Positions 2,271-28,258 of a DNA stretch of 32,000 nt are shown in pieces. The notes beneath the pieces are model-generated. The model was not told the DNA's origin. It searched no databases and saw nothing but the letters and a program-made list of their open reading frames with translations. Each line of letters opens with the position of its first letter. The stretch's first letter is position 1. Location of the stretch: positions 990,001 to 1,022,000 of the forward strand of contig OY970170.1 in the NCBI GenBank assembly GCA_963706795.1, in the 5' to 3' direction. The stretch is from Candidatus Saccharimonadota bacterium. GTDB lineage: Bacteria; Patescibacteriota; Gracilibacteria; BD1-5; UBA2023. The position numbers and the translations under genes are program-made.

Positions 2271-4988
2271 ATGACGTCCATGCAATTTATAGTAGTAGAC
2301 TTAGAAACCACCGGTTTAGATTCAAAAACCGACGCGATTATTGAGGTCGCGCTTTTACGTATCGATGAGACCGGCAAAGAGCTCGGACGATATGAGACGC
2401 TCATCAATCCTGGCTTTGCGATCAAAGAAGACATCACCTATATCACTGGGATTACCAACGAAGATCTCGTAAATGCTCCGGTATTTTCAGCTGTGCGAAA
2501 TACTCTCGCAGAGTTTTTGTGAGTGAGTCCGGTGATCGGGCATAATGTCGATTTTGATATCGCATTTTTGCGTGAATACGGACTCGATTTTAATGAGACG
2601 CTCATTATTGATACCTTTAAACTCGCGGAGATTTTGATGCTCCATGAGAAAAGTCTCAATCTTACAAGTATCGCGACGAGTCTTGGGTATAGCCATGTCT
2701 GAGCACATCGTGCGATGGCAGATGTACTCGCAACGGGATTTGTATTTGCGCATTTCTTCAAACAAATCCAGGATTTGGATGATGCACATCAAAAGCTCTT
2801 TATTTCGATCGCTTCTCGTACCGAAGAGGGGAATATGCTCCGATTTTTTGCGAACAAAGTAATCGAACTTGAGCTTGCGCCGGACGAGCTTATTATCGGA
2901 ATTCTTGAGTCGAAGCTCACACGCATGCCGCTTCCTACGAGACTTGTGAGCGATGAGCCTGAGGCGATTCCAAATTTTGCAGATGTTCTTGCGGCTGCAA
3001 CCAATCTCGAGGAACGTCCCGAGCAAATGAAGATGCTGAGTCTCGTCCACGAAGCCTATACCGAGGGTAAAAAATATCTCATCGAAGCTCCCACTGGAGT
3101 CGGTAAAACCATTGCTTACTTGCTTCCTGCGATTCTACATTCTACAAAAGAAGGGTCTCAGATTTTTGTCTCAACCAATACTCGAACTCTCCAAGACCAG
3201 ATTATCGAAAAAGACGTACCAAAACTCCGTGCGCTTTTAAAAGAATTTCATCTCGACCATTTTTCGGTACAAAAACTCAAAGGAAGAACCAATTATGTGA
3301 GCCTGCTCAAGGCCTTTGAATTTATCGACAAAGAACGGTTTGAATACTTCGAGGCTATTTTTGCGATCAAGATCGCGTACTGGCTCATGGAAACCAAGAC
3401 TGGTGAGCTCGATGAACTCTCGTTTTATGGACCTGAATATTCGCTCGTAGATGACATTAATGCCTCGGACTCAAGAGTCCTCGGCTCCGAAAATCCCCAC
3501 AAAGATGACGAATTTCTCTTCCTTGCACGTGAGTGAGCAAAGCGGGCAAATATTGTGGTCGTCAATCATGCGCTCTTGCTTACCGAATTTCTCGAGGACG
3601 AGCTTCGTGGCGTGCTTCCAAAGCTCGATCATCTCGTGCTCGATGAGGTCCACAATCTTGAGGCGGTAGCGACGGATACACTTAAAGCAACTTCTCATAC
3701 TGACGATATCGATCATGTCCTTGTCGAAGTCGATCGACTCGTAAAACGTCATAACAAAAAAGAAATCGCCGATCCATTTCTCTTCCCTGAGGCAAAAGAA
3801 CAATGAGAATGAATGGTGCTCACGGCTTCGATGTTTTTTGAAGAATTGGATTTTTATCTCGCTTCAAAAATACGGATGGGAGGAGGGGATTCGTATGGCG
3901 CTGGTCGAGCGACGGACTTGCTGCTTGATGGTGAATTTTTTAAGCATGAAGTGTATTCAAAGCTTCTCAAACTTTTTGATTCACTCCAGTTACGGGTTGC
4001 GGATTTTGAACGCATGCTTTTTTTGGCTCCCGAAAAACTCATGCGCGAACTCGAGGGGCCGATTGGGCGACTTGATTTTTTTATGAGCCATCTCGGACGA
4101 TTTTTATCTGAAGCAAATACCGCAAGTATCCGCATCCTCTCAAAGCGAGAGGGGCAATCTATCAAGATTGTAACGACTCCACTCGCGATCGGACCGCTCC
4201 TTGCTGAACGACTCTGGAAGGATCGTAAGAGTGTTGTTGCCACGAGTGCAACGCTCGCAGTTGGTGGATCATTTAATTATATCACTCGCGTACTTTCGCT
4301 CTGAGGCTTTGATCTACATGTACTCAAGACCGATTTTAATTACGCAAAACAGGCGCTGCTCTATATTCCGTCTGAACTCTGAGATGTGCGCAAAGAAGAA
4401 GAAAAGCGAGCAATTTCTCAGTTTGTCCGTGATATCGTGCTTATCTTTGGCGGCCGCACGCTCATGCTCTTTACAGCCTTCACAGCGATCAAAGAAATGG
4501 CACTCGCATGTGCTCCAGCATTTAAATCCAAGGGAATCCAGCTCCTCACACAATGAATGAGTGGTGGGAAGCATAAGATGATCGGAGAATTTATGCGAAA
4601 CTCCGACCACAGCGTTCTTTTTGGAACGGAGAGTTTTTGGGAAGGAGTCGACTTTCCTGGTGAGAGTCTCGAGCTTCTTATCATCCATAAATTCCCATTT
4701 GCGGTTCCAACTGATCCGATATTTATGGCGCGATCAAAGCTCTATGATAACGCCTTCCGTGACTACGCGCTTCCTGCAATGATCATCAAACTTCGCCAAT
4801 GAATCGGGCGCTTGATCCGTACAAAAACAGACAAGGGCGTGCTCGTGCTTCTCGACAAGCGCATAACCGGTGAATGGGGAAGCGAAGTGCTCGCATCACT
4901 TCCCGAATGACTCCCGATAAAAATGGTATCAACTAAAGAGTTCCTACCACTTCTCGAAGCGTCAAGGCCGAAATTTGCAACGAAGTAA
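2271..4988 (+). CDS. dinG: Fusion of a DnaQ-like 3'-5' exonuclease and a DinG-family ATP-dependent helicase (905 aa)
   Basis: Six ORF-track fragments (2211-2522, 2715-3536, 3555-3806, 3813-4304, 4557-4802 and linkers) share one frame. Ten in-frame TGA codons join them (2520, 2700, 3534, 3804, 3810, 4302, 4380, 4554, 4800, 4908). Exo motifs: FIVVDLETTGLD, GHNVDFD, HRAMADV. Helicase motifs: APTGVGKT, DEVH box, FWEGVDFPG, Q-G(TGA)-IGRLIR. No Cys cluster lies between motif I and DEVH, so this is the Fe-S-less Firmicute-type DinG. Stop is TAA 4986-4988. Confidence 0.9.
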
Positions 4989-5001: not shown

Positions 5002-5871
5002 ATGCTTTTGTATCCGTCTATTTCATCCTTTATGGAGCCACAAAAAACACAATTTCTCTCCCCGCAAGAGGAGATGAGTGGAGAGAGTCTATTTAAAGAG
5101 CTCGAGAATGAGCTCGATTTTGGTGATCTCGCCAAAGACAAAGAAGATCTCGCCAACGAGAAAAAACATCCACTCCAGATCGCAACGCGAGTGACTGATA
5201 TTCTCTTTAAGGTTCTCCTCGTCGCTTCGTTTATCTTGGGAGTCGACGTCACCCTTCGTAATTTGGATGCGAGTGGTTTTTTGTCGAATCTCCCGATTTG
5301 TTCATATCTCGCCTGGGGCGTAGGGGACTATGACAATACCGAATGTAAGTTATACGTTGAGATCAAGGACAAACTTACTAAAGATCGTGCCCAATACGAA
5401 AAGGATCTCACAGTTCCGCTTGCAATCTTGGTCCCTAAAAAACTCCAATCGCAGAATGTCCTCAATTCACCCGAAGTGCAATTCATTCAACTTCACACTG
5501 CTGGACGTGTAACACTCACAAAGGTGCTTGATCAATTCAATGAAATCAAGGCCTCATCCACTATCCGCAGAGGTGAAGACATCGAATGTAAAAAACTTAC
5601 TCTCGATGAAAAGGGCATCCTCAATGTCAACTGTGACTGCTATGGATTTGGACTTAATTCTGGTACAGAAGAATCCAATACTTCGAGGTCTACAGCACTT
5701 GCACTCATCGATAAGCTCTCGGACAAAAATAGTCATTTCCAGATCGTCGAAGTCCCAAAAGCACTCGATCTCGAAAAATACTCGAGCTCAGACCTCGGTA
5801 TCAAATCAACATTTAGTACACACACCACGCTCAATCTCAAGCTTCGCTACGTAGTATCTAATAAGTCGTAA
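5002..5871 (+). CDS. Hypothetical bitopic membrane protein, first gene of the pilus-like operon (289 aa)
   Basis: ATG 5002 is preceded by AAGGAG (4987-4992). Acidic N-terminal region, one predicted TM helix (ILFKVLLVASFILGVDV), then a ~190-aa external domain. The stop is 1 nt before the next start. No recognisable motif. Confidence 0.75.
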   Translation: MLLYPSISSFMEPQKTQFLSPQEEMSGESLFKELENELDFGDLAKDKEDLANEKKHPLQIATRVTDILFKVLLVASFILGVDVTLRNLDASGFLSNLPICSYLAWGVGDYDNTECKLYVEIKDKLTKDRAQYEKDLTVPLAILVPKKLQSQNVLNSPEVQFIQLHTAGRVTLTKVLDQFNEIKASSTIRRGEDIECKKLTLDEKGILNVNCDCYGFGLNSGTEESNTSRSTALALIDKLSDKNSHFQIVEVPKALDLEKYSSSDLGIKSTFSTHTTLNLKLRYVVSNKS

Positions 5872-5872
5872 T

Positions 5873-7132
5873 ATGTACGCTCCACTCGATAAGAAAAAAC
5901 AATCTCGCCTGATCAAAAGCGTCATCCTTAATGGTATGTTCGTGGTGATTTTGAGCGCATTTCTCTGGCTCTATGTTTATGATGGCTACAGTGCGGTCGG
6001 CGCCAAAGTTGATACACTCAATGACATGGTCAAGAGCTTCAATGCTATGAAAAGCGATGGGATCGATGGCCGCAAATACCAGACCCTCATCAGCAAGCTG
6101 AACAATAATAATCGTCCCAAAGACGAAAAGGTAGACTATGACAAAATTACTGAGGTCCTCAAAAAGCCTGCAAATGTCTCAATGCCATATATGGATTGGA
6201 TCAAGTCAGAGATGACAATGGTTAGTGCGTATGACAAAATCATCGAGAATAACGCTCGTATTATTGGAAATATTCTTCCGACATTTAGTGATTCTCCGGC
6301 TGATCAGGATGATACATTCTCAAAAAATCGCATTACCCTCAAGTCGCTCGTAAAATTTGTCGAAGAACACCTCCTCAAAAAATTCAATCTTGAGAGTTAT
6401 TCTTCGGTTGGTCTCTCAAATATTGTATTTAGTACTTCACAGGTTGGAGTTGTAAATATTGGTAGCTACAAAGTGACCCTCGATATTGCGGGTACAAATA
6501 ATTCGATTCTTGCACTCCTCGATGCGATTCAGGCTTCTGGAACCCTTCCACTCAAGGATGGGAAACTCGTTGATACTGATGTTTCAACTAATTCAGGAAC
6601 GGTAGCAACTCCTGCTGCTGATACTTCGACGGATTCTGCACTTTCAAATCTGCTCATCACTGTAGATGCTGCAAAATTTGATACACCTCCTGAGCGCAAT
6701 GATAACAAAAATAAGGGTCAGCTCGTGCTTGTGCTCTACGTACGAGGAAGAAGCTATAGCGACTTCATCCAGATCCGCAATGAGCTTGCAGCCAATATCA
6801 AGACACTCAAAAAGAATATCGAAACCAATGGCGGACTCTGCAAGGATGGAAACTCTGATATTTGTAAAAACCCGATTGCCTTTGCTGCAGTGAACTCTAT
6901 CAAGAGTCTCCAAGATGACATTGGCTCGATCGATCAAAAGATGCAAGAATCTCTCAAAAGTAACACTATCCGCGATATCGGAACTGAGTTTGATACTCTC
7001 TATGGCGTGCTCACCAGCTATAACGCTATAAACGCAAACTACCAAAAGGATCTCACTGACATTACAAACGCACGTCAGGGAGGCTCGTCAGACACTCAGA
7101 CACCCGCAACCAATAGCTCTACCGCTCAATAG
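5873..7132 (+). CDS. Hypothetical bitopic membrane protein, second gene of the pilus-like operon (419 aa)
   Basis: Intact ORF with an N-terminal TM anchor (VILNGMFVVILSAFLWLYVY) and a large external domain ending in a Ser/Thr-rich tail. Ends 4 nt before pilB. No in-frame TGA. Confidence 0.8.
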   Translation: MYAPLDKKKQSRLIKSVILNGMFVVILSAFLWLYVYDGYSAVGAKVDTLNDMVKSFNAMKSDGIDGRKYQTLISKLNNNNRPKDEKVDYDKITEVLKKPANVSMPYMDWIKSEMTMVSAYDKIIENNARIIGNILPTFSDSPADQDDTFSKNRITLKSLVKFVEEHLLKKFNLESYSSVGLSNIVFSTSQVGVVNIGSYKVTLDIAGTNNSILALLDAIQASGTLPLKDGKLVDTDVSTNSGTVATPAADTSTDSALSNLLITVDAAKFDTPPERNDNKNKGQLVLVLYVRGRSYSDFIQIRNELAANIKTLKKNIETNGGLCKDGNSDICKNPIAFAAVNSIKSLQDDIGSIDQKMQESLKSNTIRDIGTEFDTLYGVLTSYNAINANYQKDLTDITNARQGGSSDTQTPATNSSTAQ

Positions 7133-7136
7133 TACC

Positions 7137-8396
7137 ATGGCTTTCCAAGCTCTCGAAGATCTCAAAAACGAAGTCTACAAAGGAGACAATGCTCAGCTCA
7201 TTTGTAATCTTATTATTTCGGCTGCCGTTTCGATGCAGGCGTCGGATATTCATATTGAGCCGCTCTCGAATTTTGTACGACTCAGATATCGTATAGACGG
7301 AGTACTCACAGAAGTTCTCGAATACCAACAGTTTCTTCACTCTCAGATTGTTGCGCGTTACAAGATCCTCGCAAATCTCAAAATCGACGAATCCCGAATG
7401 CCGCAGGATGGACGTATCTCAACAACGCTCGAAGAAAAATCACTCGATCTTCGTGTTTCGACGCTTCCTACCGTCAATGGTGAGAAAATCGTAATGCGTA
7501 TCGTCGACAAATCCAAAAAAATCCCTGAGCTCAGTGCACTCGGTATTGAGGGGCGCAACGGAGTTCTTCTCCAAAAAGCGATCAGCTTACCAAATGGTAT
7601 TATACTCACCTCAGGTCCAACCGGTTCAGGTAAGTCGACGACACTGTATGCTTGTCTCTCTAAGCTCAACAAGCCAAACGTTAATATTATGACCCTCGAA
7701 GATCCTGTCGAAAACACGATCGATGGAGTCTCACAGAGTCAGGTTTTCCCAGATATTGGTTACAATTTTGCATCCGGACTTCGCACCGCTCTCCGACAGG
7801 ATCCAGACATCATCATGGTCTGAGAAATCCGCGACAAAGAGACTATTAATATCGCTATCGAAGCTTCGCTTACGGGTCATCTCGTGCTCTCGACGATTCA
7901 TACGAATTCTGCATCTGAGACGCTCACTCGTATTCTCAATATGGGAATACCAGCATATCTCTTGCCAGCTTCGATCAACGCCATCATCGCACAGCGCCTC
8001 GTTCGCAGACTCTGTCCGCATTGCAAAAAGGCGATCAAGGCTGCAGAACTTCCACAAAAAATGCAGGCCTCACTCAAACGTGCGATTGCTCGCACCAACA
8101 AGGATGAACTCGTTAGTCGTGTAGGTATAGAAAAGCTCAAAGATCCAACCTTCTACGAGCCAGTTGGATGTAACGAATGTGGGAATACCGGCTACTCAGG
8201 ACGTGTCGGAATCTACGAAATCATGGAGATTACGAATCGCATCAAAGAAGCGATCGTCGCCGGAGAATCCAGCGTCGTCATCAATGAAATCGGTATCGAT
8301 GAAGGGATGATCTCACTCGAACAAGACGGTATCATGAAGGCACTTAATGGTGCTACTTCGCTCGAGGAAGTCTACGCAGCAGCAAAAGAAAATTAA
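7137..8396 (+). CDS. pilB: Type IV pilus / type II secretion assembly ATPase (PilB/GspE family), short form (419 aa)
   Basis: Fragments 7137-7823 and 7884-8396 share one frame. TGA 7821-7823 falls on the Gly of the conserved IIMV-G-EIRD motif. Walker A is GPTGSGKSTT; His box is LTGHLVLSTIHTN. Tetracysteine motif CPHC...CNEC is typical of PilB/GspE rather than PilT. Confidence 0.93.
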
Positions 8397-8405
8397 TACA
8401 CCAGT

Positions 8406-9548
8406 ATGGAGGATATCATCATCCAAGACACTCAATCGAGTGCCGAAGTCACCAAAAAATCATTTAGATTCTCACTCGAATCCTTTGATGCATGGCTCGT
8501 CGCTCACCAGCGAATGAAGCTCAAAGAAAAGGTGATCTTTTTCCGACTTCTTGCGACCATGGTTAATGCAGGACTTCCAGTACTCAAGTCCATCGCTATC
8601 CTCGAAAAACAAGAGCAAAATCCTGTCGTCAAAAACGTCTACAGCCGCATCATCGAATGAGTAAAGGGCGGAAAAAATCTCTCCCTCACGCTTCGTAGTT
8701 TTGATGGTACATTCTCTGATGCTGAAGCCTCCATCATCGAATCCGGAGAAAAAACCGGTAAACTCAATAACGCCCTCCTCCAGCTTGCTGATCAGGTCGA
8801 AAAGGTCGACAGTGTTACTAAAAAAATCAAAGGCGCTCTCATCTATCCTGCAGCCATTGTCATCGTCATGTTCGGATCGATCACCGTCCTCATGACACTC
8901 GTTGTTCCCAAGCTCGTTGAGATGTTTGGTGACAAAGACAAGCTTCCGGCTCTGACGCAGCTCCTGATGGCGACGAGTGATTTCTTTGTAAATTACTGGT
9001 GGGCTATGATCGGTACGATTGTCATCGCGATCGTACTCCTCGGTGTATGGCGCAAAAGTGCAGAAGGTCACTACAAATTTGACGCACTTCTCCTCAAACT
9101 CCCAATCTTTGGATCAGTGCTTCGTAAGGTAATCCTCTCAAAGTTTTCACGTGTTCTCTCCAATCTCCTCGGCAGCGGTATCTCGATCGTAGAGTCTCTT
9201 CGAATCGTCTCCGAAGTCGTCGACAACGAAGTCTATCGCCAGCGAATCCTCGCCCTCCGTGAAGACGTCAAACGCGGAGTCAAAATCGCCGAAAATCTCG
9301 AAGACGACAAACTCTTCCCAGAAATGCTCGTCCAAATGATCAAAGTCGGAGAAGAAACCGCCAAACTCGATTCTATCATCCTCAAGATCGCTGACTTCTA
9401 TGATGAAGAAGTCGACAACACGATCAATGCAATTAACAAGACGCTCGAGCCAGTGATCATCGTAACCATGGCCATCGTCATCGGTTTCATCGCCGTCGGT
9501 ATCATGCAACCAATCATGAATCTCTCAGAAACGATCGAAAACAAGTAG
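8406..9548 (+). CDS. pilC: Type IV pilus / T2SS platform protein (PilC/GspF family, 380 aa)
   Basis: Fragments 8406-8660 and 8868-9548 are joined in frame through TGA 8658-8660. Shows the duplicated GspF-type pattern (FFRLLATMVNAGLPVLKSI... and FSRVLSNLLGSGISIVESL...) with three TM segments. Stop is TAG 9546-9548. Confidence 0.93.
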
Positions 9549-9556
9549 TGTCCCAT

Positions 9557-9601
9557 AAAAAATTCCCCTCCAAAGCTTTGTGCAAAGGAGGGGAATTTTT
9601 A
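9557..9601. terminator. Bidirectional terminator hairpin between pilC and the convergent pilin gene
   Basis: Perfect 13-bp stem, aaaattcccctcc (9559-9571) pairing with ggaggggaatttt (9587-9599), with an A run on one side and a T run on the other. The pilin stop codon (9599-9601) sits at its edge. Confidence 0.75.
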
Positions 9602-10759
9602 TGGAGCGATGCAGATTTTGCAGGATATATTAGAACTCGTACTTGGCTGTCCTGCATTGTGAGAGCAGGCTCCCGCTGAAGCTGCACCAGATGCAGCAAT
9701 CGTTTTTGTAGATGATTGCCAGCCGGCCGGACACGCAGTCATAACCACTTCTGTTCCTGATGGGAGTAATCCTGCAGCTTGTGTACGGCAGGCAAGACAT
9801 GCTGTGCCGCTACTGCAAGCCACTGTTTGAGGTAAGCCTAACGCTACAGTACTATTCGGTGAACTAATGGATCATGTTGGACAAGATGCTCATGCAATCA
9901 AATAATCTACTCATACGGGCACTGTACTATTTGGTTTCGCACTACAGACTTTTGCTAATCAGGTTGTCGAAAAGCCGATTCCAGGCGCTCCACTTAAAAT
10001 CGCATTTGTCGTCGAAACTGACCATCCCTTCGGGCAATCTGCCATGACGACTTCCATGATCCCTTTGTAATTCATTTCGAGTCCTCAGAGCGCTCCAGTG
10101 CTGGTGGAGATATTTGCGATAAACGTCTTGTTATCGAGGATGGCCATAATTGCCCCTGTATTTACCTGTACATCTACTTGTGTGACTGTTGAAGCATTAT
10201 ATGTCTCTTGTATTGGCTGATTGAGAGTCGAGCCTGTGATAGTTCCGACGAGTATTCCAAGCTGCGCTCATCGAGTGAGTGGCACTCGAGTATCATAGTT
10301 TGCAGCGTATGCCTGTGGTATGACAGAGCTCATCGCTGTTACTCCATTGGTATTTTCGAGAAGTGCGAGAATCTGGTATGTACTGCCGCTCGTGTCCGTG
10401 CTGTAGGTGTAGTACTGATTGTCCGTCGGATCCATCCCTTTGCCCCCAAATCAGATAAATCCGAGTAGATTTTTACCTGCATATCATTGTGCACCGATCG
10501 CTGCGCCTGAGGCAGTAATCGTAATTACATTCGCATCCGGTTGAGGTAGTGAAATTCCTGTGGTAATCTGTGCTTCAAGTGCAACTCAGATCGAGGCAAG
10601 ATCGCTTGATCTCGTGCTGTCTCGCGCACTGCTCGAATATCCTTGGAGCGACAAAAATCCAATCGTCCCCAAAATCGCAAGAATCGTAATCACCACAATG
10701 AGCTCAACAAGTGTGAAGGCTGCAGATCCAGAGTAACTTTTGTCTCTATTTCGCATCAT
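9599..10759 (-). CDS. Large type IV pilin-like protein with a Cys-rich C-terminal module (386 aa)
   Basis: Hand translation of the - strand from ATG 10759 to TAA 9599-9601 is open when nine in-frame TGA codons are read as sense. The N-terminus MMRNRDKSYSGSAA-FTLVELIVVITILAILGTIGF is a class III (prepilin) signal with the conserved Glu at +5. A pilin-core-like YYTYSTDTSGSTYQILALLEN follows. The last ~150 aa carry 10 Cys. Confidence 0.85.
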
Positions 10760-10781
10760 AAGGAGGAAGAAAATAACGCGA

Positions 10782-10811
10782 ATATTATGGGATTTTTAAA
10801 ATGGGAAGCAA
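10782..10811 (-). promoter_or_regulatory. Candidate sigma70-type promoter for the pilin gene
   Basis: On the - strand: TTGCTT (10811-10806), an 18-nt spacer, then TAATAT (10787-10782), about 22 nt upstream of the ATG. Each hexamer matches consensus at only 4 of 6 positions. Confidence 0.25.
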
Positions 10812-10816
10812 ACAAT

Positions 10817-10845
10817 AAATACGCCCCGAAATTTGGGGCGTATTT
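10817..10845. terminator. Terminator hairpin downstream of the 10865-11485 gene
   Basis: Perfect 11-bp stem, aaatacgcccc pairing with ggggcgtattt, around a 7-nt loop with A/T-rich flanks. Lies 20 nt after the TAA at 10865-10867 of the - strand gene and insulates it from the pilin promoter region. Confidence 0.7.
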
Positions 10846-10864
10846 ATATTTAAATTTTCTTAGT

Positions 10865-11485
10865 TTATGCAACAGAGAGCCCTCCGAGAGCTTCTCCATT
10901 TGGTGGATCTTTTTGGATGTGCTCCTTGACCATGGCAAGTCGGACATTACGCTGCTCATTCATTTTTTCGAGTGCAAGCTTTTGTCGAGCATCTGCCATC
11001 TCTTTATGAAATCTCTGAAGCTGTTCTTTTGAGCGTTGAGCTTCTGTCTCGGCAGTAGCTGATTCTTGAGCTTTTTGCGCTCCTTTTGGGCCCTCGATAC
11101 TGCCTTGGAGACTCTCGAGTCAGGCTGTCAATTGGTGGTAGATCTTGATAAGAGCTTCTCGTTTTTCTTCGGGTTTTGATTCACTCTGGAGGATCGCACT
11201 TTTTTCTGCATCAAATTCCTTCGTGAGCTTTTCAGCACCTTCATCAAAGGTTTTTTTGTCCTCTGGAGCGAGAGAAGTACTGAGATTGGTCATGCTCGTC
11301 TCAACCATCTTCTTCAAGAGGGTATCTGTTTGAGAGTCTTTTCATTCTGTTTTACCGCTTTTGCTCAGCTCTTTTTCGAAGTCTGCATTGTCCTTGTTGA
11401 GCTCTTTGTCAGCTGTATCAAGGGTATTGTCTGGCTGATCAAGACCAACTTTGTCAGCCTCTTTTGTATTGAGTTTTTCTAGCAT
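10865..11485 (-). CDS. Hypothetical acidic, helix-rich protein (206 aa)
   Basis: ATG 11485 (MLEKLNTKEADK...). Fragments 11342-11485, 11120-11317 and the tail down to TAA 10865-10867 share one frame through TGA codons at 11342-11344 and 11120-11122. Lys/Glu/Gln-rich, with no TM segment or signal peptide. Confidence 0.7.
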
Positions 11486-11590
11486 AGGGTGGGGGTTTTC
11501 GATATTTTGCCCTAAAGAACGCTGAGATGCAAAAGTTCGATATATGATTCTCTTCGCTTTGCATATACTCTGTGTAACTAATCCCTCTCT

Positions 11591-12277
11591 ATGGCTACAC
11601 AAAAAAATACACCCAAGAGTAAACCGATCGTCGGAGCGATTATATTTCTCGTGGTGATCGTGCTCCTTGGGTACTACGCACTCTCGAACAATACGCCCAA
11701 AAAACCAGTTTGGAACGAAAATGACCGTAAGGTCACGCAAACGGGTACAACTACATCAGATACCTCTACTGGAGATACCACTCCTCCTGCTACAGATTCT
11801 GGAAGCATGACTCCTCCGCCTCCTGATGCCATCGTCAATACGCCGGCTGGTCGCGATGCACGCGACTCTGATCCTCTAGTGAATCCTCCGCCAGTAGTTG
11901 CTACAAACACGGGTACAATTACGAGTACGGGCACTACCTCATCGGGTGTAACCGAATACTGGAATGAATCACTTGGCTACGGATTTTCAGTACCCAAGGG
12001 TACGTACTACCTCGGTACAGGTCCTCGTGATGAGGCAGCTCATAGCGTAGCGCTTCGTGTAGGAACGGGGGCAACCGACTTTGAGAGCGCGGAGGTTCGA
12101 GTCTGGTACTATCCAAGAAAACTCCTCCAGCAGCTTGCAGAAGGGGAGAATGGATTCTATCAAGATGCGAATACTTCTCGCACATATATGAAGTTCGGAT
12201 CTGGAACTCTTGTTATTGGCGGAACATTCGATAGCTCAGTCGTGAAGACCATCATCCAAACAGCAAAAGTTCGCTAA
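11591..12277 (+). CDS. Hypothetical membrane-anchored protein with a Thr/Pro-rich linker (228 aa)
   Basis: Intact ORF. N-terminal TM anchor (IVGAIIFLVVIVLLGYYAL), a T/S/P-rich spacer, and a ~110-aa C-terminal globular region. TATACT lies 22 nt upstream of the ATG. Stop is TAA. Confidence 0.8.
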   Translation: MATQKNTPKSKPIVGAIIFLVVIVLLGYYALSNNTPKKPVWNENDRKVTQTGTTTSDTSTGDTTPPATDSGSMTPPPPDAIVNTPAGRDARDSDPLVNPPPVVATNTGTITSTGTTSSGVTEYWNESLGYGFSVPKGTYYLGTGPRDEAAHSVALRVGTGATDFESAEVRVWYYPRKLLQQLAEGENGFYQDANTSRTYMKFGSGTLVIGGTFDSSVVKTIIQTAKVR

Positions 12278-12280
12278 ACA

Positions 12281-12309
12281 AAAAAAGAGTCAGCAATGAC
12301 TCTTTTTTT
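12281..12309 (+). terminator. Rho-independent terminator after 11591-12277
   Basis: Stem agagtca (12286-12292) pairs with tgactct (12297-12303) around a gcaa loop. Flanked by an A run and a 7-T run. Confidence 0.7.
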
Positions 12310-12336
12310 AGGCTTCAATTTGCGCCATATTTCAGG

Positions 12337-12438
12337 ATGAACGTGGATAGTATGTGGTTTTCGAAACCGACTCACTGTGCGTCTCTGAGGTGCCCTCTGC
12401 TTTTGTCGGTAAGAAATACACATACTATCCACGTTCAT
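12337..12438. repeat. Hairpin A: 102-nt element closed by a perfect 20-bp inverted repeat (candidate structured RNA or repeat element)
   Basis: atgaacgtggatagtatgtg (12337-12356) is the exact reverse complement of cacatactatccacgttcat (12419-12438). The 62-nt interior pairs further (accgac 12365-12370 with gtcggt 12405-12410). Confidence 0.85.
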
Positions 12439-12464
12439 TATCGCCATACGACCTTTCATCGAAT

Positions 12465-12567
12465 GAAACCTCATAGAATATATCTTTTTCATTCAATCAA
12501 AGCCAGTGCGCACCTAGAATTCACCAAGGCTGCTTGAATTTCAAAAACATATATTCTATGAGGTTTC
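12465..12567. repeat. Hairpin B: 103-nt element closed by a perfect 19-bp inverted repeat (candidate structured RNA or repeat element)
   Basis: gaaacctcatagaatatat (12465-12483) is the exact reverse complement of atatattctatgaggtttc (12549-12567). The interior pairs further (ttttt/aaaaa, attcaa/ttgaat, gcc/ggc) around an apical GTGCGCAC palindrome. Confidence 0.85.
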
Positions 12568-12591
12568 TGGGAAGTTTCGAGACTGAGAAGT

Positions 12592-13260
12592 TTAGAAGCA
12601 TACCACAAACTCGCCCTTCATCGGATGAGTTTTAAAATGCTCGCGAACCTCGGTAGTAGTTCCGCGTACGAATTCTTCGAATTTTTTAGTGAGTTCACGT
12701 CCCACTACGATCTGGTGTTCAGACCCAAAATATTCCTCGAGTTCGGCGAGAGTTTTCTCAATGCGGTGGACGCTCTCGTAGATCACAACTGTATGATCTT
12801 TGTTTTGAAGGCTTTCAAAGAGGGTTTTGCGTCCTTTTTTGATCGGTAAAAACCCGAGATATGTAAAGTGGTGTGTCTGAAGGCCCGAGCAAATAAGTGC
12901 CGAAAGCACAGCCGAAGCTCCAGGAATAGGGCAGAGGGTGATCCCTGCTTCGATTGCTTTGCGTACAAGTGAGTAGGCTGGATCTGATATCCCTGGAGTT
13001 CCTGCATCTGAGATGAGGGCGATATTTGCGCCTTCTTCTAAGAGCTTAATAATCGCATCCTCTTTACCTGCACCCGTATGCGAATGGAACGAAATCGTCT
13101 TCTTGCCCGTAATTTCATAATGTTTGAGAAGAATCCCTGAAGTGCGAGTATCCTCACAGGCAATATAATCCGCCTCGCGCAATGTGCGAAGTGCTCGAAG
13201 TGTGATATCTTCGAGGTTCCCGATGGGTGTAGAGACGAGATAGAGGATTCCTGATGCCAT
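12592..13260 (-). CDS. rsmI: 16S rRNA (cytidine1402-2'-O)-methyltransferase RsmI
   Basis: Intact ORF. LYLVSTPIGNLEDITLRALRTLREADYIACEDTR, SDAGTPGISDPG-like motif (SDAGTPGISDPAY) and ESVHRI are typical of the tetrapyrrole-methylase-fold RsmI family. ATG 13260 (alternative TTG 13269). Stop is TAA 12592-12594. Confidence 0.93.
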   Translation of the reverse strand: MASGILYLVSTPIGNLEDITLRALRTLREADYIACEDTRTSGILLKHYEITGKKTISFHSHTGAGKEDAIIKLLEEGANIALISDAGTPGISDPAYSLVRKAIEAGITLCPIPGASAVLSALICSGLQTHHFTYLGFLPIKKGRKTLFESLQNKDHTVVIYESVHRIEKTLAELEEYFGSEHQIVVGRELTKKFEEFVRGTTTEVREHFKTHPMKGEFVVCF

Positions 13261-13269
13261 AGGGCTCAA

Positions 13270-13788
13270 TTACAAAATATTTAATCGTACTCCGTAATGT
13301 TCTTCGAGGAGTTTTGCTCCTCATAGGAAGAGATCTTCCTTTTTAAAACCCAGCGCTTCGGCTGCTTTTATCAGTGCCTCTTCACTCGGAGATTCGAACT
13401 CGATAAATACAGGAATAGTTCCATAATCATCGATCTCGTAGCGTGTATTATTCAGCGTATAGGAAGTGCGGTGTTTAATAATCTTTGCAATGCACTCAAA
13501 ACCTGTAGCTTTCAGGATGTAATCCATCGTATCAGGATTTTGAATCTCTATCTCGTACTCTCTTTCTTGTGTTGCAAATGCGCTTTCTCACGCTTTTTCC
13601 TTATATGTAAGCAGTGTCTGCACATTGTTGAATGTTCTCATCCGTACTCGTTTTCCATTCGGAGAAGTGTACGAAAACGAGACGAGTTCGCCATCAAAGA
13701 TCTTCTCCGCGCCAAGTGAGAGAAGATTTTTTTCTACTTCTTCGCGGTTAATTTCGAGGATTTTCGCTTCGATTTCCAAAAATGGCAT
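13270..13788 (-). CDS. CYTH-domain protein (CyaB/ThTPase-like triphosphate tunnel enzyme, 172 aa)
   Basis: Fragments 13588-13788 and 13321-13527 are joined in frame through TGA 13588-13590 and extended through TGA 13321-13323 to TAA 13270-13272. The N-terminal MPFLEIEAKILEI is the CYTH ExExK signature, and later strands alternate charged residues (REYEIEI, RYEIDDY, VFIEFE). Confidence 0.8.
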
Positions 13789-13797
13789 AGAGAAAAA

Positions 13798-14292
13798 TTA
13801 CCGTATAAACCCAAATGCTTCCATTCCTCATCTGCGAAACTCTGTATCTGACATCTTAAACCGAGAGGGGATTGCAAGTACGAGCTTTGTATTTACAGGA
13901 TACAGGCGAGTAACGACCATTCCATGACTTTGGAGTTGCTGCCATTTACGGGGAGAAATAGTGATGGCCTGAACGAGGAGATCGAGTGTGCAGGATTCTT
14001 CTTCATCGCTTACACTCACAGTGAAGAGCTTTGGCGGTAAATCTTCATCTTCTTCATCTCTAAAGCCCGTACATTCTATATTTTGCAAAAATGTCTGAGT
14101 TGAACTCTCTCGAAAATAGATGTCGAATTCATTGCTGCCATCCGTGAACAATGTGCTCACAATAATTGACGGATTCTCTTTCTCAAGGCTTTCATTTAAG
14201 CGCTTTTTTGATGTCTCCTGTATACCAAAAGACCCTCGATCAGAGAGGAGATCGGAGTCTTTTTGATTTTCGGAGGAGGCAATCGTATTCAT
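13798..14292 (-). CDS. Hypothetical acidic protein directly downstream of dnaA (164 aa)
   Basis: ATG 14292 lies 9 nt after the dnaA stop. ORF 13828-14292 extends through TGA 13828-13830 to TAA 13798-13800. No recognisable motif, and it is not a sliding-clamp (DnaN) sequence. Confidence 0.7.
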
Positions 14293-14301
14293 ACTTGGAA
14301 A

Positions 14302-15699
14302 TTATAGTCCGAGTTTGTCGCGGATAACATTCACTTCGTAGAAGAGATTTTGGTCCTTTTTGAGGATGGATTCGAGCTTGCGGCAAGAGTAGAGAACTGC
14401 TGAGTGATTGCGCCCTGAGAAGATATTTCCAATTCGCTCGTAAGTGAAATGGAGTTTATTCTTGAGGAGGTACATTGCAACCTGACGCGGGATCATGTGC
14501 TCCTTGCGGCGGTCTTCTCCGAGGATAGCCTTCTTGTCGATGCCAAAGTGCGAGCTAACAGCTTCTACGAGCTCATCATAGCTCTTGGTGGCAGTTTTTT
14601 TGTTGCGGTGTGAGACGAGTGTATCGGTAACTCCGAGGCGATTCATACGCGCTCCAACATTGTCTATAGTAGGAGGTGTATTGTGGAGTTCGTATTCTGC
14701 AATGATCTGGTTGAGGATTCCTTCGAGTTCGCGGACGTTTGATACTGCGTTATATGCAATGAATTCAGCGACTTCCTGCGGCAAGATAAACTCTCGTGCG
14801 CGGGCTTTTTCTTGGAGGATGGCGAGGCGAGTCTCAAAATCAGGTGCTCCGATATCTACGATGATACCCCACTCAAATCGACTCTTGAGTCGTGGCTCGA
14901 TTTCTTCGAGCTCACGAGGTGCACGATCTCCGGAGAGGATAATCTGCTTACCTGACTCATACATCACATTAAATATGTTGTAGAGCTCGTCCTGTGTGCG
15001 TTCTTTTTTAGCGAGGAACTGGATATCGTCGATGATGAGGACATCGATTCCGCGATATTTTTCGCGCATTTTGTCTGTTGTGCGTTTTTTTACAGAGTCG
15101 ACATAGTCTGTAATAAAACGATCGGCAGTTGTATAGATGACTTTCTTATCCTTAAATCGTGCTTTAACAGCGTTACCGGTAGCTTGGAGGAGGTGAGTTT
15201 TCCCGAGTCCAACTTCTCCATAGATATAGAGTGGATTGTACGCAGATCCTGGCTTGCGAGAGACTGCTTCGCACGCAGCGAATGGGAGCTGGTTTGCGGG
15301 TCCTACGATAAAATTCTCGAGGCGATATTTTTCGCTGATGAGGCGAGCATTGATTCCGCCGACTTCGTTTTCGACTGCAACTTCTTCTTTCGTCTTGGTA
15401 GTGAGGCCCTTGTATTCTTTGGCGCAATCTACAACCAAGAGATTAGAGGGATTCTCAATAGTGGTATCTACTACAAATCCAACGGTTGTGACTTCTGGAA
15501 TGCATGACTGTGCAGCGGCGAGGATTTCAGCATCGAATTTATGGAGATTGTCTCGCATAAATGCTGATTCTACACCGAGTACCAATCGTCCTTCTGCAAA
15601 CTCGACAAATGACAACTTTTTAAAGAAAGTCAGGAAGTCCTGCTTGCGAACCTTGGAGGCGATGTGGCGTACGATATCTCGAAGCGTCTGAAGTTCCAT
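14302..15699 (-). CDS. dnaA: Chromosomal replication initiator DnaA (465 aa)
   Basis: Intact ORF. AAA+ Walker A GEVGLGKTHLL, Walker B VLIIDDIQFL, sensor motifs, and the C-terminal DNA-binding domain (RQVAMYLLK...FSGRNHSAVLYSCRK). No in-frame TGA. Confidence 0.98.
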   Translation of the reverse strand: MELQTLRDIVRHIASKVRKQDFLTFFKKLSFVEFAEGRLVLGVESAFMRDNLHKFDAEILAAAQSCIPEVTTVGFVVDTTIENPSNLLVVDCAKEYKGLTTKTKEEVAVENEVGGINARLISEKYRLENFIVGPANQLPFAACEAVSRKPGSAYNPLYIYGEVGLGKTHLLQATGNAVKARFKDKKVIYTTADRFITDYVDSVKKRTTDKMREKYRGIDVLIIDDIQFLAKKERTQDELYNIFNVMYESGKQIILSGDRAPRELEEIEPRLKSRFEWGIIVDIGAPDFETRLAILQEKARAREFILPQEVAEFIAYNAVSNVRELEGILNQIIAEYELHNTPPTIDNVGARMNRLGVTDTLVSHRNKKTATKSYDELVEAVSSHFGIDKKAILGEDRRKEHMIPRQVAMYLLKNKLHFTYERIGNIFSGRNHSAVLYSCRKLESILKKDQNLFYEVNVIRDKLGL

Positions 15700-16040
15700 G
15701 TACTAAGGAGAGAAAATGGACTCTAAAAATGTCCAGTAAGGTGTATCCGTTTCAAGGTTGATGTCAAAAATTAAAACACGCTTGACGCGTATTTCTGTAT
15801 AACTTTTTTATACGACCAACTGGCTGGCTTCCTGTTGGGGAAAGCTCAGGTCCTGCAAAATCTAAGTTGAGAATAGTTTTTAACAATTTCGCAACTCAAA
15901 ATTATCTTTTGTTCGGCCTTCTTTTTATATCATTCAGAACGCGATTTTTCAGCAAGGAAAGAATGTGTTTGTTGGATTCTTTTCTCTCGTTTTTTGAGAA
16001 GGGGAGTCTACTGATTTTTTGGAGATTTGAAAGCGAGAAT
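15700..16040. other. Non-coding region upstream of dnaA; candidate replication origin / dnaA promoter region
   Basis: A 341-nt gap with no credible ORF in a window that otherwise has 0-20 nt gaps. Contains A/T-rich stretches (for example 15870-15950). Only degenerate DnaA-box-like 9-mers are present, with no perfect TTATCCACA. Confidence 0.3.
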
Positions 16041-22326: not shown

Positions 22327-22347
22327 TAAAACTAAAACAAAACCCCC

Positions 22348-23058
22348 ATGAATATACTCATTATCGAAGATGATGTATTTTTGGCAGGCAAAATATGAAA
22401 AATATTCGAGTCTAAAGTCATTGCCAATCGTGTTAAAATACTTCATTCTTTTACTGAATTTTTAGACGAACTTTCTATTATCAGCTCATACGATATCGTA
22501 CTCACAGATCTCAAGCTCTCGGCCAATAGCAAAGAACTTTGTGGATACAGGATTATCAAAGCTATTCGAGAAAAAAAAGCACAAATGCCGATCGTCGTGA
22601 TCAGCGGTTTTAGTGACATTGACCGACTGAGAGAAGCCTTTGAATACTGAGCCAGTGATTACATCGTCAAGCCTATACGGCTTAAAGAACTCGAGTTACG
22701 AGTCTCGAATTGGTTCAAAAACTACTGTCTCTCTAAGCTGACTTCTGCCTGAAAGGGAAACGTGTATCACTACAAAGAACTCAGTTATCACCTCGATAAA
22801 AACGAATTTTATTTCAAACGAACCCATATTCCACTCACCAAAAACAACAAATACATTCTTTCGCTCTTTTTTACCTCTCCGGAGCGCCTGCTTCGCGAAT
22901 CATTTTTAGTAGAAAAGATCTGGTGAGATATTTGTATTACGGTGGATCGCAATCTCAGGGTGAGTATTTTGCGACTCAAAAATTCGCTCAGTCCTTTTGG
23001 GCTCGATACCTGGATCCACAATATTCGCTGAGAGGGATATATATTTTCGGAAGAATAA
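22348..23058 (+). CDS. OmpR-family response regulator (236 aa)
   Basis: ATG 22348, 21 nt after the kinase stop. Receiver (ILIIEDD...DIVLTDLKL...VKP) plus winged-helix output. Five in-frame TGA codons, including the Gly of the conserved R-G(TGA 23029)-EGY motif. Stop is TAA 23056-23058. Confidence 0.9.
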
Positions 23059-23061
23059 AAA

Positions 23062-23082
23062 ATGTCCTCTAGTCGAGGACAT
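23062..23082. terminator. Shared hairpin between the two convergent two-component operons
   Basis: atgtcctc (23062-23069) pairs with gaggacat (23075-23082). On the - strand it is followed by TTTTTT, giving a good terminator for the - operon. It overlaps the - strand stop codon. Confidence 0.6.
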
Positions 23083-23734: not shown

Positions 23735-23844
23735 TTGGCCTTTACGGGGAATAGAATAATTATGAAAAGGAGAAAAATTTCTGTGAATTTGAGAAAGTAT
23801 ACCGAGTTGTGCGCGAAGTTCAAATACTCTGAAACAAACAAAAT

Positions 23845-26223: not shown

Positions 26224-26239
26224 AAGGCATTGCTAGAGG

Positions 26240-28075: not shown

Positions 28076-28258
28076 GTCAGATGATTAAGAATACCAAATT
28101 TGCGGAGCTCTTTTAAAACATTCGCAATCCTCAGGATACAGATGAACTATGATTCTGCAAAGAAGAGAATATCAATTTGTCTTCACTTCAAACTCACATG
28201 CTTCTTTTTGGAAATGTGCTTTTGGTGTGGATAATGATTGTCTCTTATCCTTCTTTTT

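What the first reader, a model, noticed from the sequence alone, without database searches (positions are those of the whole stretch)
5002..9548. Minimal type IV pilus-like operon with two unrecognisable membrane proteins in place of PilM/N/O
Four genes are packed with 1-9 nt gaps: a 289-aa bitopic protein, a 419-aa bitopic protein, PilB and PilC. The ATPase is a short form of about 419 aa. It lacks the long N-terminal domains of classical PilB/GspE but keeps the tetracysteine motif (CPHC...CNEC). No PilM (actin-like), PilN/PilO, PilD prepilin peptidase, PilT retraction ATPase or secretin is present in the window. The two upstream proteins have the right topology (N-in, single TM, external domain) to act as alignment-complex analogues, but they have no motif I can recognise. 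They may be lineage-specific pilus machinery components.
Basis: partly seen in the sequence, partly recalled or inferred. Interest (0 to 1): 0.65.

Follow-up and report, generated by a model that had tools for sequence, protein, structure and literature searches.

The report
Divergent pilus assembly genes in CPR bacterium
Two unannotated membrane-protein genes sit immediately upstream of the type IV pilus motor genes pilB and pilC in a bacterium that reads TGA as glycine; they keep that position in every relative found, and the larger one is predicted to fold like the pilus assembly protein PilO, so they are probably very divergent assembly-complex subunits.

Summary
Four + strand genes lie 1, 4 and 9 nt apart: ORF1 (5002-5871, 289 aa), ORF2 (5873-7132, 419 aa), a short PilB (7137-8396) and PilC (8406-9548). 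ORF1 and ORF2 each have one N-in transmembrane helix. Neither matches any Pfam or NCBIfam profile.

Both belong to real, conserved families seen only in TGA-recoded CPR bacteria. In all 15 distinct related loci the order DinG-ORF1-ORF2-PilB-PilC is kept wherever the contig reaches, including two loci with different outer flanks.

The ORF2 model is confident (pLDDT 88). The only two solved structures it matches at probability 0.9 or above are both PilO, though E-values are weak (0.004 and 0.014) and phage tail-terminator folds score similarly. ORF2 also has a C-terminal helical extension, as in the large PilO of Gram-positive bacteria. ORF1 has an alpha-beta-beta repeat ectodomain with four invariant cysteines, but its fold matches are non-specific.

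Best reading: ORF2 is a divergent PilO-like subunit and ORF1 is its PilN-like partner, working without a linked PilM. This is a new variant of a known machine. "Minimal" is unproven, because PilD, PilT or PilM could lie outside the window. A pilin gene and a conserved DinG gene flank the block.

The parts
2271..4988 (+). DinG-like protein: an N-terminal RNase_T-type exonuclease fused to a DEAD/Helicase_C_2 helicase. It has 10 in-frame TGA codons. The start is uncertain (GTG 2211 or ATG 2271). It is a conserved upstream neighbour of the block and ends 13 nt before ORF1.
   Evidence: Pfam hits RNase_T 4.6e-25, DEAD 1.4e-13, Helicase_C_2 4.5e-36. It lies upstream of ORF1 in every locus that reaches that far.
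5002..5871 (+). ORF1, 289 aa, a bitopic N-in membrane protein. It has an acidic cytoplasmic N-terminus with a conserved (D/S)(I/L)F(Q/K)EL motif, a KK(H/D)P stretch before the TM helix (aa 67-85, nt 5200-5256), and an ectodomain ending in an alpha-beta-beta-alpha-beta-beta(-beta) domain (aa 172-283, nt 5515-5850). Cys100, 115, 196 and 211 are invariant. It is the proposed PilN-like partner subunit. An AAGGAG Shine-Dalgarno-like sequence lies 9 nt upstream of the ATG.
   Evidence: family and conservation; model pLDDT 69 overall, 83-91 in the C-terminal domain; fold search; TM helix, charges, ribosome-binding site.
5873..7132 (+). ORF2, 419 aa, a bitopic N-in membrane protein. Its TM helix (aa 17-35, nt 5921-5977) continues into one long helix (aa 7-62). 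Extra helices follow, then an alpha/beta core (aa ~156-291, nt 6338-6745) and a C-terminal helical bundle (aa 295-403, nt 6755-7081) with near-invariant Cys323 and Cys331. It is the proposed PilO-like subunit.
   Evidence: family of 176 representatives; model pLDDT 88, pTM 0.72; PilO 3jc8_Oa prob 0.99, 2rjz_A prob 1.00.
7137..8396 (+). PilB/GspE-type assembly ATPase, short form of 419 aa without N1/MshEN domains. Motifs: Walker A at aa 160-168 (nt 7614-7640), Walker B at aa 222-233 (nt 7800-7835, with TGA = Gly at 7821-7823), His box at aa 246-257, and the tetracysteine CPHC (nt 8013-8024) plus CNEC (nt 8169-8180).
8406..9548 (+). PilC/GspF-type platform protein, 380 aa, with two T2SSF repeats and one in-frame TGA (8658-8660).
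9599..10759 (-). Large prepilin, 386 aa, with the class III signal '...GSAA|FTLVELIVVITILAILG' and a Cys-rich C-terminal part. It is convergent with pilC across a 50-nt gap. A pilin at this position was seen only in the window, not in the related loci.
   Evidence: PF07963 N_methyl 8.4e-06 and TIGR02532; motif scan of all loci.

Best explanation
The window comes from a CPR bacterium of the TGA = Gly (code 25) Gracilibacteria/Absconditabacteria type. ORF1 and ORF2 are most likely the membrane-anchored assembly sub-complex of a monoderm-type type IV pilus, co-transcribed with the PilB ATPase and the PilC platform.

Proposed mechanism (inferred, not shown). Both proteins insert N-in. Their juxtamembrane helices and alpha/beta ectodomains pair into a PilN/PilO-like heteromer that rings PilC on the outer face of the membrane. 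That ring would stabilise the PilB-PilC motor and position pilins for extraction.

ORF2 is a highly divergent PilO-like protein. Its extra C-terminal helical bundle parallels the oversized PilO of Gram-positive pili. The bundle may reach into the cell wall or S-layer.

ORF1 would be the PilN-equivalent partner. Its short conserved acidic cytoplasmic peptide could dock a cytoplasmic partner, either PilB/PilC or a PilM encoded elsewhere.

Shown here: gene structure, topology signals, family conservation, invariant linkage to pilB-pilC, and fold-level resemblance of ORF2 to PilO. Inferred: heterodimerisation, contact with PilC or PilB, and ORF1's role.
For: Gene packing at 1, 4 and 9 nt.

Linkage: the order DinG-ORF1-ORF2-PilB-PilC is kept in 15 distinct related loci wherever the contig reaches. 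ORF2 identity falls to about 14-16% and ORF1 identity to 20-23%. Two of these loci (L014, L019) have different outer flanks.

ORF2: the model is confident (pLDDT 88, pTM 0.72). In the PDB search the only two hits with probability >= 0.9 are PilO from M. xanthus (3jc8_Oa, E = 4.4e-3, 293 columns) and from P. aeruginosa (2rjz_A, E = 1.4e-2, TMt 0.51). The PilO-like Amuc_1100 also appears.

ORF1: the C-terminal domain is modelled as alpha-beta-beta-alpha-beta-beta at pLDDT 83-91. The PilO core 5uvr ranks fourth. Four invariant cysteines fit an extracytoplasmic domain.

Topology: positive-inside charge and a single TM helix in both proteins.

Precedent: in monoderms PilO is much larger than PilN, is PilO-like only in its N-terminal part, and in S. 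sanguinis was recognised only by HHpred (PMC6916266). Bona fide E. coli HofN and HofO also fail to find solved PilN or PilO by sequence, so the lack of sequence hits is expected for this kind of protein.
Against: No Foldseek hit reaches E <= 1e-3. Phage tail-terminator and completion folds score at similar E-values, both in the PDB (0.03-0.2) and in BFVD (3.6e-3, prob up to 0.94). The core is therefore a generic two-layer alpha/beta sandwich.

ORF1's best PDB hit is a phage neck protein (prob 0.97), with PilO at only prob 0.51. The N-terminal half of its model is poor.

No profile signal for PilN, PilO, GspL or GspM appeared in 66 ORF2-family members (a single T2SSM hit at E = 0.013) or in 17 ORF1-family members (none), nor in the family consensus sequences.

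The ORF1 and ORF2 families show no profile-profile similarity to each other.

Most related loci share the wider FtsZ...DnaA neighbourhood, so the linkage partly reflects general synteny.

No PilM is linked, and the known PilM-binding motifs are absent from the window's ORF1.
Confidence: 0.55

Rival explanations
1. ORF1 and ORF2 are lineage-specific accessory envelope proteins, for example cell-wall or S-layer anchoring, host-contact or pilus-gating factors. They are co-expressed with PilB-PilC but are not homologues or functional equivalents of PilN and PilO. The alpha/beta sandwich resemblance is generic.
For: There are no sequence-profile hits to PilN, PilO or GspM. Fold E-values are weak, and phage tail-terminator-like folds score equally well. 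Both proteins are much larger than classical PilN/PilO (about 200 aa). ORF2 has a 110-aa helical extension. An SLH-domain protein in the window points to a wall-anchored surface layer.
Against: The only two PDB hits with probability >= 0.9 for the confident ORF2 model are both PilO, and one of those alignments spans 293 columns, far more than the 189-residue PilO chain. The topology and the position directly upstream of pilB match assembly sub-complex genes. Large PilO proteins with extra domains are normal in monoderms (PMC6916266).
Confidence: 0.22
2. The functional unit is dinG-orf1-orf2-pilB-pilC, a DNA-uptake (competence or nucleotide-scavenging) module. ORF1 and ORF2 act as a membrane DNA receptor or channel adaptor. 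The DinG exonuclease-helicase processes incoming DNA that the pilus pulls in.
For: DinG lies directly upstream of ORF1 in every locus that reaches that far, including L014 and L019 where the outer flanks differ. The gap is 13 nt in the window. CPR pili are thought to serve DNA uptake, and ComEA is detectable in only about 31% of CPR genomes (PMC6744442).
Against: Nothing in ORF1 or ORF2 resembles a DNA-binding domain, with no HhH or ComEA hits. DinG is a general repair helicase, and its adjacency may be lineage synteny. L014 and L019 resemble each other, so this amounts to only two independent contexts. No ComEC or ComEA was found in the window.
Confidence: 0.12
3. ORF1 and ORF2 are divisome proteins (bitopic FtsQ/DivIB- or FtsL/FtsB-like) belonging with the nearby ftsA-ftsZ genes, and lie next to pilB-pilC by chance.
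For: FtsA-FtsZ lie just upstream in most loci. The N-in bitopic topology with a coiled coil is also typical of FtsL, FtsB and FtsQ. One of 66 family members gave a weak POTRA hit (E = 0.011).
Against: L014 and L019 keep ORF1-ORF2-PilB-PilC without ftsZ nearby. An 0.6-kb gap and the DinG gene separate ftsZ from ORF1, whereas ORF2 and pilB are 4 nt apart. No FtsQ, FtsB or FtsL structure appears among the top 50 fold matches.
Confidence: 0.04

Closest known systems
PilN-PilO assembly sub-complex of monoderm type IVa pili (e.g. Streptococcus sanguinis PilN and the large PilO, formerly PilH)
   Same: Two consecutive genes for N-in bitopic proteins sit in the same operon as the extension ATPase and platform. 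The globular parts are alpha-beta-beta repeats. One partner (ORF2, 419 aa) is much larger than a classical PilO and is PilO-like only in part. As with S. sanguinis PilO, it is invisible to ordinary profile searches (PMC6916266).
   Different: There is no linked PilM and no recognisable PilM-binding motif in ORF1. Neither protein matches PF04350 or PF05137. ORF1 (289 aa) has a long acidic cytoplasmic tail and four invariant cysteines. PilB lacks its N-terminal domains. The genes precede pilB rather than follow pilC, and DinG is always upstream.
PilO of diderm T4aP (P. aeruginosa 2RJZ/5UVR; M. xanthus 3JC8 chain O)
   Same: These are the best structural matches by probability for ORF2, and a top-4 match for ORF1. 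They share the architecture of TM helix, coiled coil and ferredoxin-like core.
   Different: E-values are only 4e-3 to 0.1 and sequence identity is about 10-11%. ORF2 is twice as long, with inserted helices and a C-terminal bundle. No PilP or PilQ partners are present or expected in a CPR envelope.
GspL-GspM of type II secretion systems
   Same: They form a bitopic pair with permuted-ferredoxin ectodomains that clamps the GspE-GspF motor. PilB and PilC here score slightly higher against the GspE and GspF models than against the PilB and PilC models.
   Different: There is no GspL cytoplasmic domain, and PilB lacks the N1 domain that binds it. No secretin or GspC was found. The only signal is one weak T2SSM hit in 66 family members.
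ComGA-ComGB competence pilus of Firmicutes
   Same: It is a compact machine with a short ATPase lacking long N-terminal domains, in a monoderm-type cell, with a likely role in DNA uptake.
   Different: Com operons have no PilN/PilO-like genes. The ATPase and platform here score below the ComGA and ComGB cut-offs (253 vs 300 bits; 147 vs 240 bits). The ATPase keeps the C-terminal tetracysteine region, which lies beyond the 267-position ComGA model.
Unknown transmembrane gene families next to pilB/pilC/pilM in Patescibacteria (FESNov catalogue; conserved hypotheticals around pilBC in JAEDAM01)
   Same: Published surveys already note conserved, unannotated membrane proteins flanking pilB-pilC in CPR genomes (PMC10849945; PMC11393006).
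   Different: Those reports give no structural or functional assignment. I could not check whether ORF1 and ORF2 are among the catalogued families.

Membership tests
PilO (Pfam PF04350 / IPR007445), tested on ORF2 | Significant match to the family sequence profile | tested here: not met
   The window protein has no Pfam or NCBIfam hit at E <= 1. None of the 66 family members hits PilO. The family consensus also gives no hit.
PilO (Pfam PF04350 / IPR007445), tested on ORF2 | Short cytoplasmic N-terminus, one TM helix running into a coiled coil, N-in topology | tested here: met
   TM helix at aa 17-35, with 5 K/R in the 15 residues before it. The model has a continuous helix from aa 7 to 62.
PilO (Pfam PF04350 / IPR007445), tested on ORF2 | Ferredoxin-like (two alpha-beta-beta) ectodomain superposable on solved PilO | tested here: inconclusive
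   3jc8_Oa at E = 4.4e-3 (prob 0.99) and 2rjz_A at E = 1.4e-2 (prob 1.00, TMt 0.51) are the only hits with prob >= 0.9. No hit reaches E <= 1e-3, and tail-terminator folds score similarly.
PilO (Pfam PF04350 / IPR007445), tested on ORF2 | Encoded in the pilus assembly gene cluster | tested here: met
   The gene ends 4 nt upstream of pilB in the window. It is adjacent to pilB in all 11 distinct loci that reach that far.
PilO (Pfam PF04350 / IPR007445), tested on ORF2 | Forms a heterodimer with PilN | not testable with these tools
PilN (Pfam PF05137 / IPR007813), tested on ORF1 | Significant match to the family sequence profile | tested here: not met
   Searches gave no hit in any of the 17 family members.
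PilN (Pfam PF05137 / IPR007813), tested on ORF1 | Cytoplasmic PilM-binding motif: INLLP-type in diderms (e.g. E. coli HofN 'PINFLPWR'); RD(MILF)N(FYW)FS in monoderms (PMC6916266) | tested here: not met
   The window's ORF1 reads '...SLFKELENELDFGD...'. Some relatives read 'LGENFFKD', which shares only the NFF core. The motif lies about 25-30 residues before the TM helix rather than at the extreme N-terminus.
PilN (Pfam PF05137 / IPR007813), tested on ORF1 | Bitopic N-in protein with an alpha-beta-beta repeat ectodomain | tested here: inconclusive
   The TM helix (aa 67-85) and the secondary-structure order H172-186, E194-201, E206-215, H228-239, E246-250, E257-259, E273-283 fit. Foldseek is non-specific: PilO 5uvr at E = 0.097, and no PilN in the top 50.
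Type IVa pilus machinery (system level) | PilB-type extension ATPase, PilC platform, and a prepilin with a class III signal peptide | tested here: met
   PF00437 at 8.7e-127, PF00482 at 7.6e-54, PF07963 at 8.4e-06.
Type IVa pilus machinery (system level) | PilM actin-like protein, PilD prepilin peptidase and PilT retraction ATPase | tested here: not met
   None was found among the code-25 ORFs of the 32-kb window. The rest of the 1.27-Mb contig could not be examined, so absence from the genome is not shown.
Com (ComGA/ComGB) competence pilus | ATPase and platform reach the ComGA and ComGB equivalog cut-offs | tested here: not met
   ComGA 253.1 bits against a cut-off of 300; ComGB 146.7 bits against 240. 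The GspE, PilB and GspF models score far higher.
GspL/GspM (type II secretion) | Profile match to T2SSM or T2SSL; GspL cytoplasmic domain | tested here: not met
   One of 66 ORF2-family members hits T2SSM, at E = 0.013 only. hhalign against E. coli GspL and GspM found nothing, but that test had no power because the controls also failed.
FtsQ/DivIB or FtsL/FtsB divisome proteins | POTRA/FtsQ domains or fold matches to them | tested here: not met
   There was no Pfam hit apart from one POTRA match at E = 0.011 in 1 of 66 members. None appears in the top 50 fold matches.

The most novel reading that the evidence does not exclude
dinG-orf1-orf2-pilB-pilC is a self-contained, PilM-independent 'feeding pilus' module specific to TGA-recoded CPR bacteria. 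ORF1 and ORF2 form a new kind of stator around PilC: PilO-like in core but with a wall-spanning helical extension and a disulfide-stapled partner. The co-transcribed DinG exonuclease-helicase processes DNA reeled in from prey or host, replacing the missing ComEA-type step.
Probability: 0.12. Interest if true: 0.7.

Novelty: new variant of a known kind. Interest (0 to 1): 0.42.

Why it matters
Type IV pili are thought to be central to how CPR bacteria attach to hosts and take up DNA. The code-25 lineages, which include the predatory Absconditabacteria, are poorly annotated because standard gene callers break their genes at TGA.

This work assigns two conserved 'hypothetical' families to the pilus assembly sub-complex. 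That fills a gap in the parts list for these organisms. It also gives a natural example of a PilB-PilC motor working with PilN/PilO-like proteins but without a linked PilM or the ATPase N-terminal domains. That arrangement bears on the open question of what PilM, PilN and PilO actually do in monoderm pili.

The invariant DinG neighbour is a testable lead for a link between the pilus and DNA processing.

Tried and rejected
1. Pfam and NCBIfam scans of the window proteins, of 66 ORF2-family and 17 ORF1-family members, and of family consensus sequences gave no PilN, PilO or GspL signal and only one marginal GspM-family (T2SSM) hit.

2. Profile searches of both families against PDB sequences gave only noise. 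A PPR hit was a compositional artefact.

3. hhalign of the ORF1 family against the ORF2 family found no similarity.

4. hhalign of both families against E. coli HofN, HofO, GspL and GspM found nothing. The positive controls (HofO-GspM, HofN-GspL, HofN-HofO) also failed, so this test has no power. HofN and HofO also fail to find solved PilN or PilO by phmmer.

With A1 it gave 4 GTDB loci. The two metagenome scans gave 0 and 2 short loci.

6. A BFVD fold search was run to test a phage origin. It returned only weak tail-terminator-like hits, comparable to the PilO scores. This tempers the PilO assignment but does not replace it.

7. The idea of a conserved pilin next to pilC was rejected. The motif scan found a pilin at that position only in the window.

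8. Rfam found no RNA family in the window. The promoter and terminator scan showed nothing above shuffle expectation within the block.

9. The first hhalign script timed out.

Full report
**Observation**

With the standard bacterial code the region looks broken. Two clean ORFs (4975/5002-5871 and 5873-7132) are followed by a string of same-frame fragments (7137-7823, 7884-8396, 8406-8660, 8868-9548).

Translation shows that the in-frame stops are TGA codons at glycine positions of universally conserved motifs. One is in the PilB Walker B box 'DPDIIMV*EIRD'. The other is in PilC 'IIE*VKGG'.

Re-calling ORFs with only TAA and TAG as stops gives four tightly packed + strand genes:
- ORF1, 5002-5871, 289 aa
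- ORF2, 5873-7132, 419 aa
- PilB, 7137-8396, 419 aa
- PilC, 8406-9548, 380 aa

The gaps between them are 1, 4 and 9 nt. The window therefore uses code 25 (TGA = Gly).

PilB matches PF00437 at 8.7e-127 and aligns to positions 185-562 of the 564-position PilB model, so the N-terminal domains are missing. It keeps Walker A, Walker B, the His box and the CPHC...CNEC tetracysteine. PilC has two T2SSF repeats.

ORF1 and ORF2 each have a single strongly hydrophobic segment (aa 67-85 and aa 17-35) preceded by Lys/Arg-rich sequence, so both are N-in bitopic proteins. Neither hits Pfam or NCBIfam even at E <= 1. The description in the finding is therefore accurate.

**Surroundings**

Read with code 25, the window holds the following genes:
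- FtsZ (424-1623)
- a DinG-like exonuclease-helicase (2271-4988), ending 13 nt before ORF1
- the four-gene block
- a convergent 386-aa prepilin (9599-10759, minus strand, N_methyl motif)
- several small unknown genes
- a TP_methylase-like gene and a CYTH-like gene, named from the Pfam families of their homologues in related loci
- DnaA (14302-15699, minus strand)
- a DEAD-box helicase
- two-component regulators
- an SLH-domain hydrolase

No PilM, PilD, PilT or secretin is present in the 32 kb. The window is part of a 1.27-Mb contig, so nothing can be said about the rest of the genome. A paper on the related JAEDAM01 lineage reports pilB, pilC, pilD and pilT scattered through the genome, with one contiguous pilB-pilC pair flanked by conserved hypothetical genes (PMC11393006).

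**Are ORF1 and ORF2 real, conserved genes?**

Yes. The word-indexed search found 5 relatives of ORF2. For ORF1 it found 9 relatives, rising to 22 with a profile.

An exhaustive HMMER search with the ORF2 alignment found 176 cluster representatives at E <= 1e-3, of which 49 were at <= 1e-30. Most full-length members are 360-485 aa.

Conservation patterns are protein-like:
- ORF1 has invariant P98, C100, C115, I194, C196, C211, S228, A232, F246 and Y283. It also has a conserved cytoplasmic (D/S)(I/L)F(Q/K)EL motif.
- ORF2 has invariant or near-invariant Y39, W109, P136, E164, N259-L260-L261, Y289-V290, C323 and C331.

Some database homologues show Trp where the family has Gly. These were translated with code 4 although the organisms use code 25.

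**Linkage**

I collected 15 distinct related loci and annotated them locally with code 25 and HMMs (annotation). Every locus has in-frame TGA codons inside the homologous genes, so all come from TGA-recoded lineages.

Wherever the contig extends far enough, the order is DinG-ORF1-ORF2-PilB-PilC, with small gaps or overlaps. ORF1 directly precedes ORF2 in all 14 loci where both can be seen. ORF2 directly precedes PilB in all 11 loci that reach that far.

Most loci also share the wider FtsA-FtsZ ... DnaA neighbourhood, which weakens the inference. Two loci help here. L014 and L019 carry very divergent ORF2 relatives (14-16% identity in the alignment; E = 2e-10 and 2e-8). They have different genes on both sides yet keep the five-gene block.

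**Fold**

The ORF2 model was built on a 66-sequence alignment and is confident (pLDDT 88, pTM 0.72). It consists of:
- one long helix from aa 7 to 62, comprising the TM helix and a coiled coil
- a helical segment
- an alpha/beta core (H156-169, E196-208, H209-221, E262-269, E279-291)
- a C-terminal helical bundle from aa 295 to 403

Against 350,542 PDB chains, the only two hits with Foldseek probability >= 0.9 are PilO. One is the M. xanthus T4aP machine model (3jc8 chain Oa, E = 4.4e-3, prob 0.99, 293 aligned columns). The other is the P. aeruginosa crystal structure (2rjz_A, E = 1.4e-2, prob 1.00, TMt 0.51). The PilO-like Amuc_1100 appears at E = 0.06.

Two caveats apply. No hit reaches E <= 1e-3. 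Phage tail-terminator and tail-completion proteins, which are also two-layer alpha/beta sandwiches, score similarly in the PDB and in BFVD.

The ORF1 model is weaker overall (pLDDT 69), but its C-terminal domain is well predicted (pLDDT 83-91) as alpha-beta-beta-alpha-beta-beta(-beta). In the whole-chain fold search the PilO core (5uvr) ranks fourth at only E = 0.097. A phage neck protein ranks first. ORF1's fold class is compatible with PilN, PilO or GspM but is not specifically assigned.

**Sequence-level tests**

All sequence-level tests for PilN, PilO, GspL or GspM were negative, apart from one marginal T2SSM hit (E = 0.013) in 1 of 66 ORF2-family members. These families are notoriously divergent, so this carries little weight. 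E. coli HofN and HofO do not find solved PilN or PilO by phmmer. My hhalign controls among HofN, HofO, GspL and GspM also failed. The negatives therefore do not count against the assignment.

Pelicic's review gives a precedent. S. sanguinis PilO was recognised only by HHpred. [quoted passage not shown] ORF2 fits that description well.

**Interpretation**

The best-supported reading (confidence about 0.55) is that ORF2 is a highly divergent, enlarged PilO-like subunit and ORF1 is its PilN-equivalent partner. Together with PilC and a short PilB they would form the membrane assembly sub-complex of a monoderm-type type IV pilus in code-25 CPR bacteria.

The following are inferred, not shown: heterodimerisation, contact with PilC or PilB, and a docking role for ORF1's conserved acidic cytoplasmic peptide.

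The system departs from canonical T4aP in three ways. No PilM is linked. ORF1 carries neither the diderm INLLP-type nor the monoderm RD(MILF)N(FYW)FS motif; some relatives read 'GENFF', while the window reads 'ENELDF'. PilB also lacks its N-terminal domains.

The rivals are:
- Lineage-specific accessory envelope proteins with a generic alpha/beta fold (0.22).
- A DNA-uptake module in which the invariant DinG neighbour matters and ORF1/ORF2 handle DNA (0.12).
- Divisome proteins that belong with ftsA-ftsZ (0.04). The last is contradicted by L014 and L019 and by the fold hits.

**Novelty**

Most CPR bacteria carry recognisable PilM, PilN and PilO (PMC6744442). Conserved unknown membrane proteins next to pilB-pilC in Patescibacteria have been noted before without assignment (PMC10849945; PMC11393006).

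The contribution here is a concrete and testable assignment of two unannotated families restricted to TGA-recoded CPR. This is a new variant of a known machine, not a new kind of system. 'Minimal' remains unproven.

Noticed in passing
window 7821-7823 and 8658-8660; whole window: The window uses genetic code 25. In-frame TGA codons fall on conserved glycines (PilB Walker B, PilC). DinG has 10 in-frame TGA codons and the pilin has 9. All real genes end in TAA or TAG. Standard-code gene calling fragments PilB, PilC, DinG and the pilin here and in the public records of relatives.
   Followed up: yes
window 2271-4988 (+); also L001-L008, L010, L012, L014, L019-L021: A DinG-like protein (RNase_T exonuclease fused to a DEAD/Helicase_C_2 helicase) lies directly upstream of ORF1 in every related locus that reaches that far. 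This holds even where the outer flanks differ (L014, L019). In the window it ends 13 nt before ORF1, so it may be co-transcribed with the pilus genes.
   Followed up: partly
window 9599-10759 (-): An unusually large prepilin (386 aa) with a Cys-rich C-terminal part containing repeated 'CP.GW...S(S)T' segments, suggesting a modular adhesin-type pilin. A pilin at this position next to pilC was not found in any related locus.
   Followed up: partly
window 10815-10847: A perfect 15-bp-stem hairpin (ATAAATACGCCCC...GGGGCGTATTTAT) with T-rich tails on both strands, resembling a bidirectional terminator, lies between the pilin gene start and the next minus-strand ORF.
   Followed up: no
window 9500-16000: Cumulative GC skew reaches its minimum around 11-13 kb, and gene orientation switches near 9.5 kb. 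DnaA lies at 14302-15699 (-). The pilus block therefore sits next to the likely replication origin. Its genes point towards that region, which would be head-on to replication if the skew reflects replication rather than coding-strand bias.
   Followed up: no
alignment A5 (P0043, P0044, P0045): Several database homologues carry Trp at positions where the family has Gly (for example 'FYVRWIWF' and 'HQSWKL'). These proteins were translated with code 4 (TGA = Trp) from organisms that actually use code 25.
   Followed up: no
window 20146-26752 and 28238-29584: A cluster of two histidine kinases and three response regulators is followed by an SLH-domain alpha/beta hydrolase. The SLH domain points to a wall-anchored surface layer, consistent with a monoderm-type envelope.
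   Followed up: partly
window 5083-5124 (ORF1 aa ~28-41); alignments A3 and A6: A conserved acidic-aromatic cytoplasmic peptide in the ORF1 family: '(D/S)(I/L)F(Q/K)EL...'. Many relatives read 'DDIFQGLGENFFKD'. The 'NFF' core loosely recalls the monoderm PilN motif RD(MILF)N(FYW)FS quoted in PMC6916266, but the window copy lacks it.
   Followed up: partly
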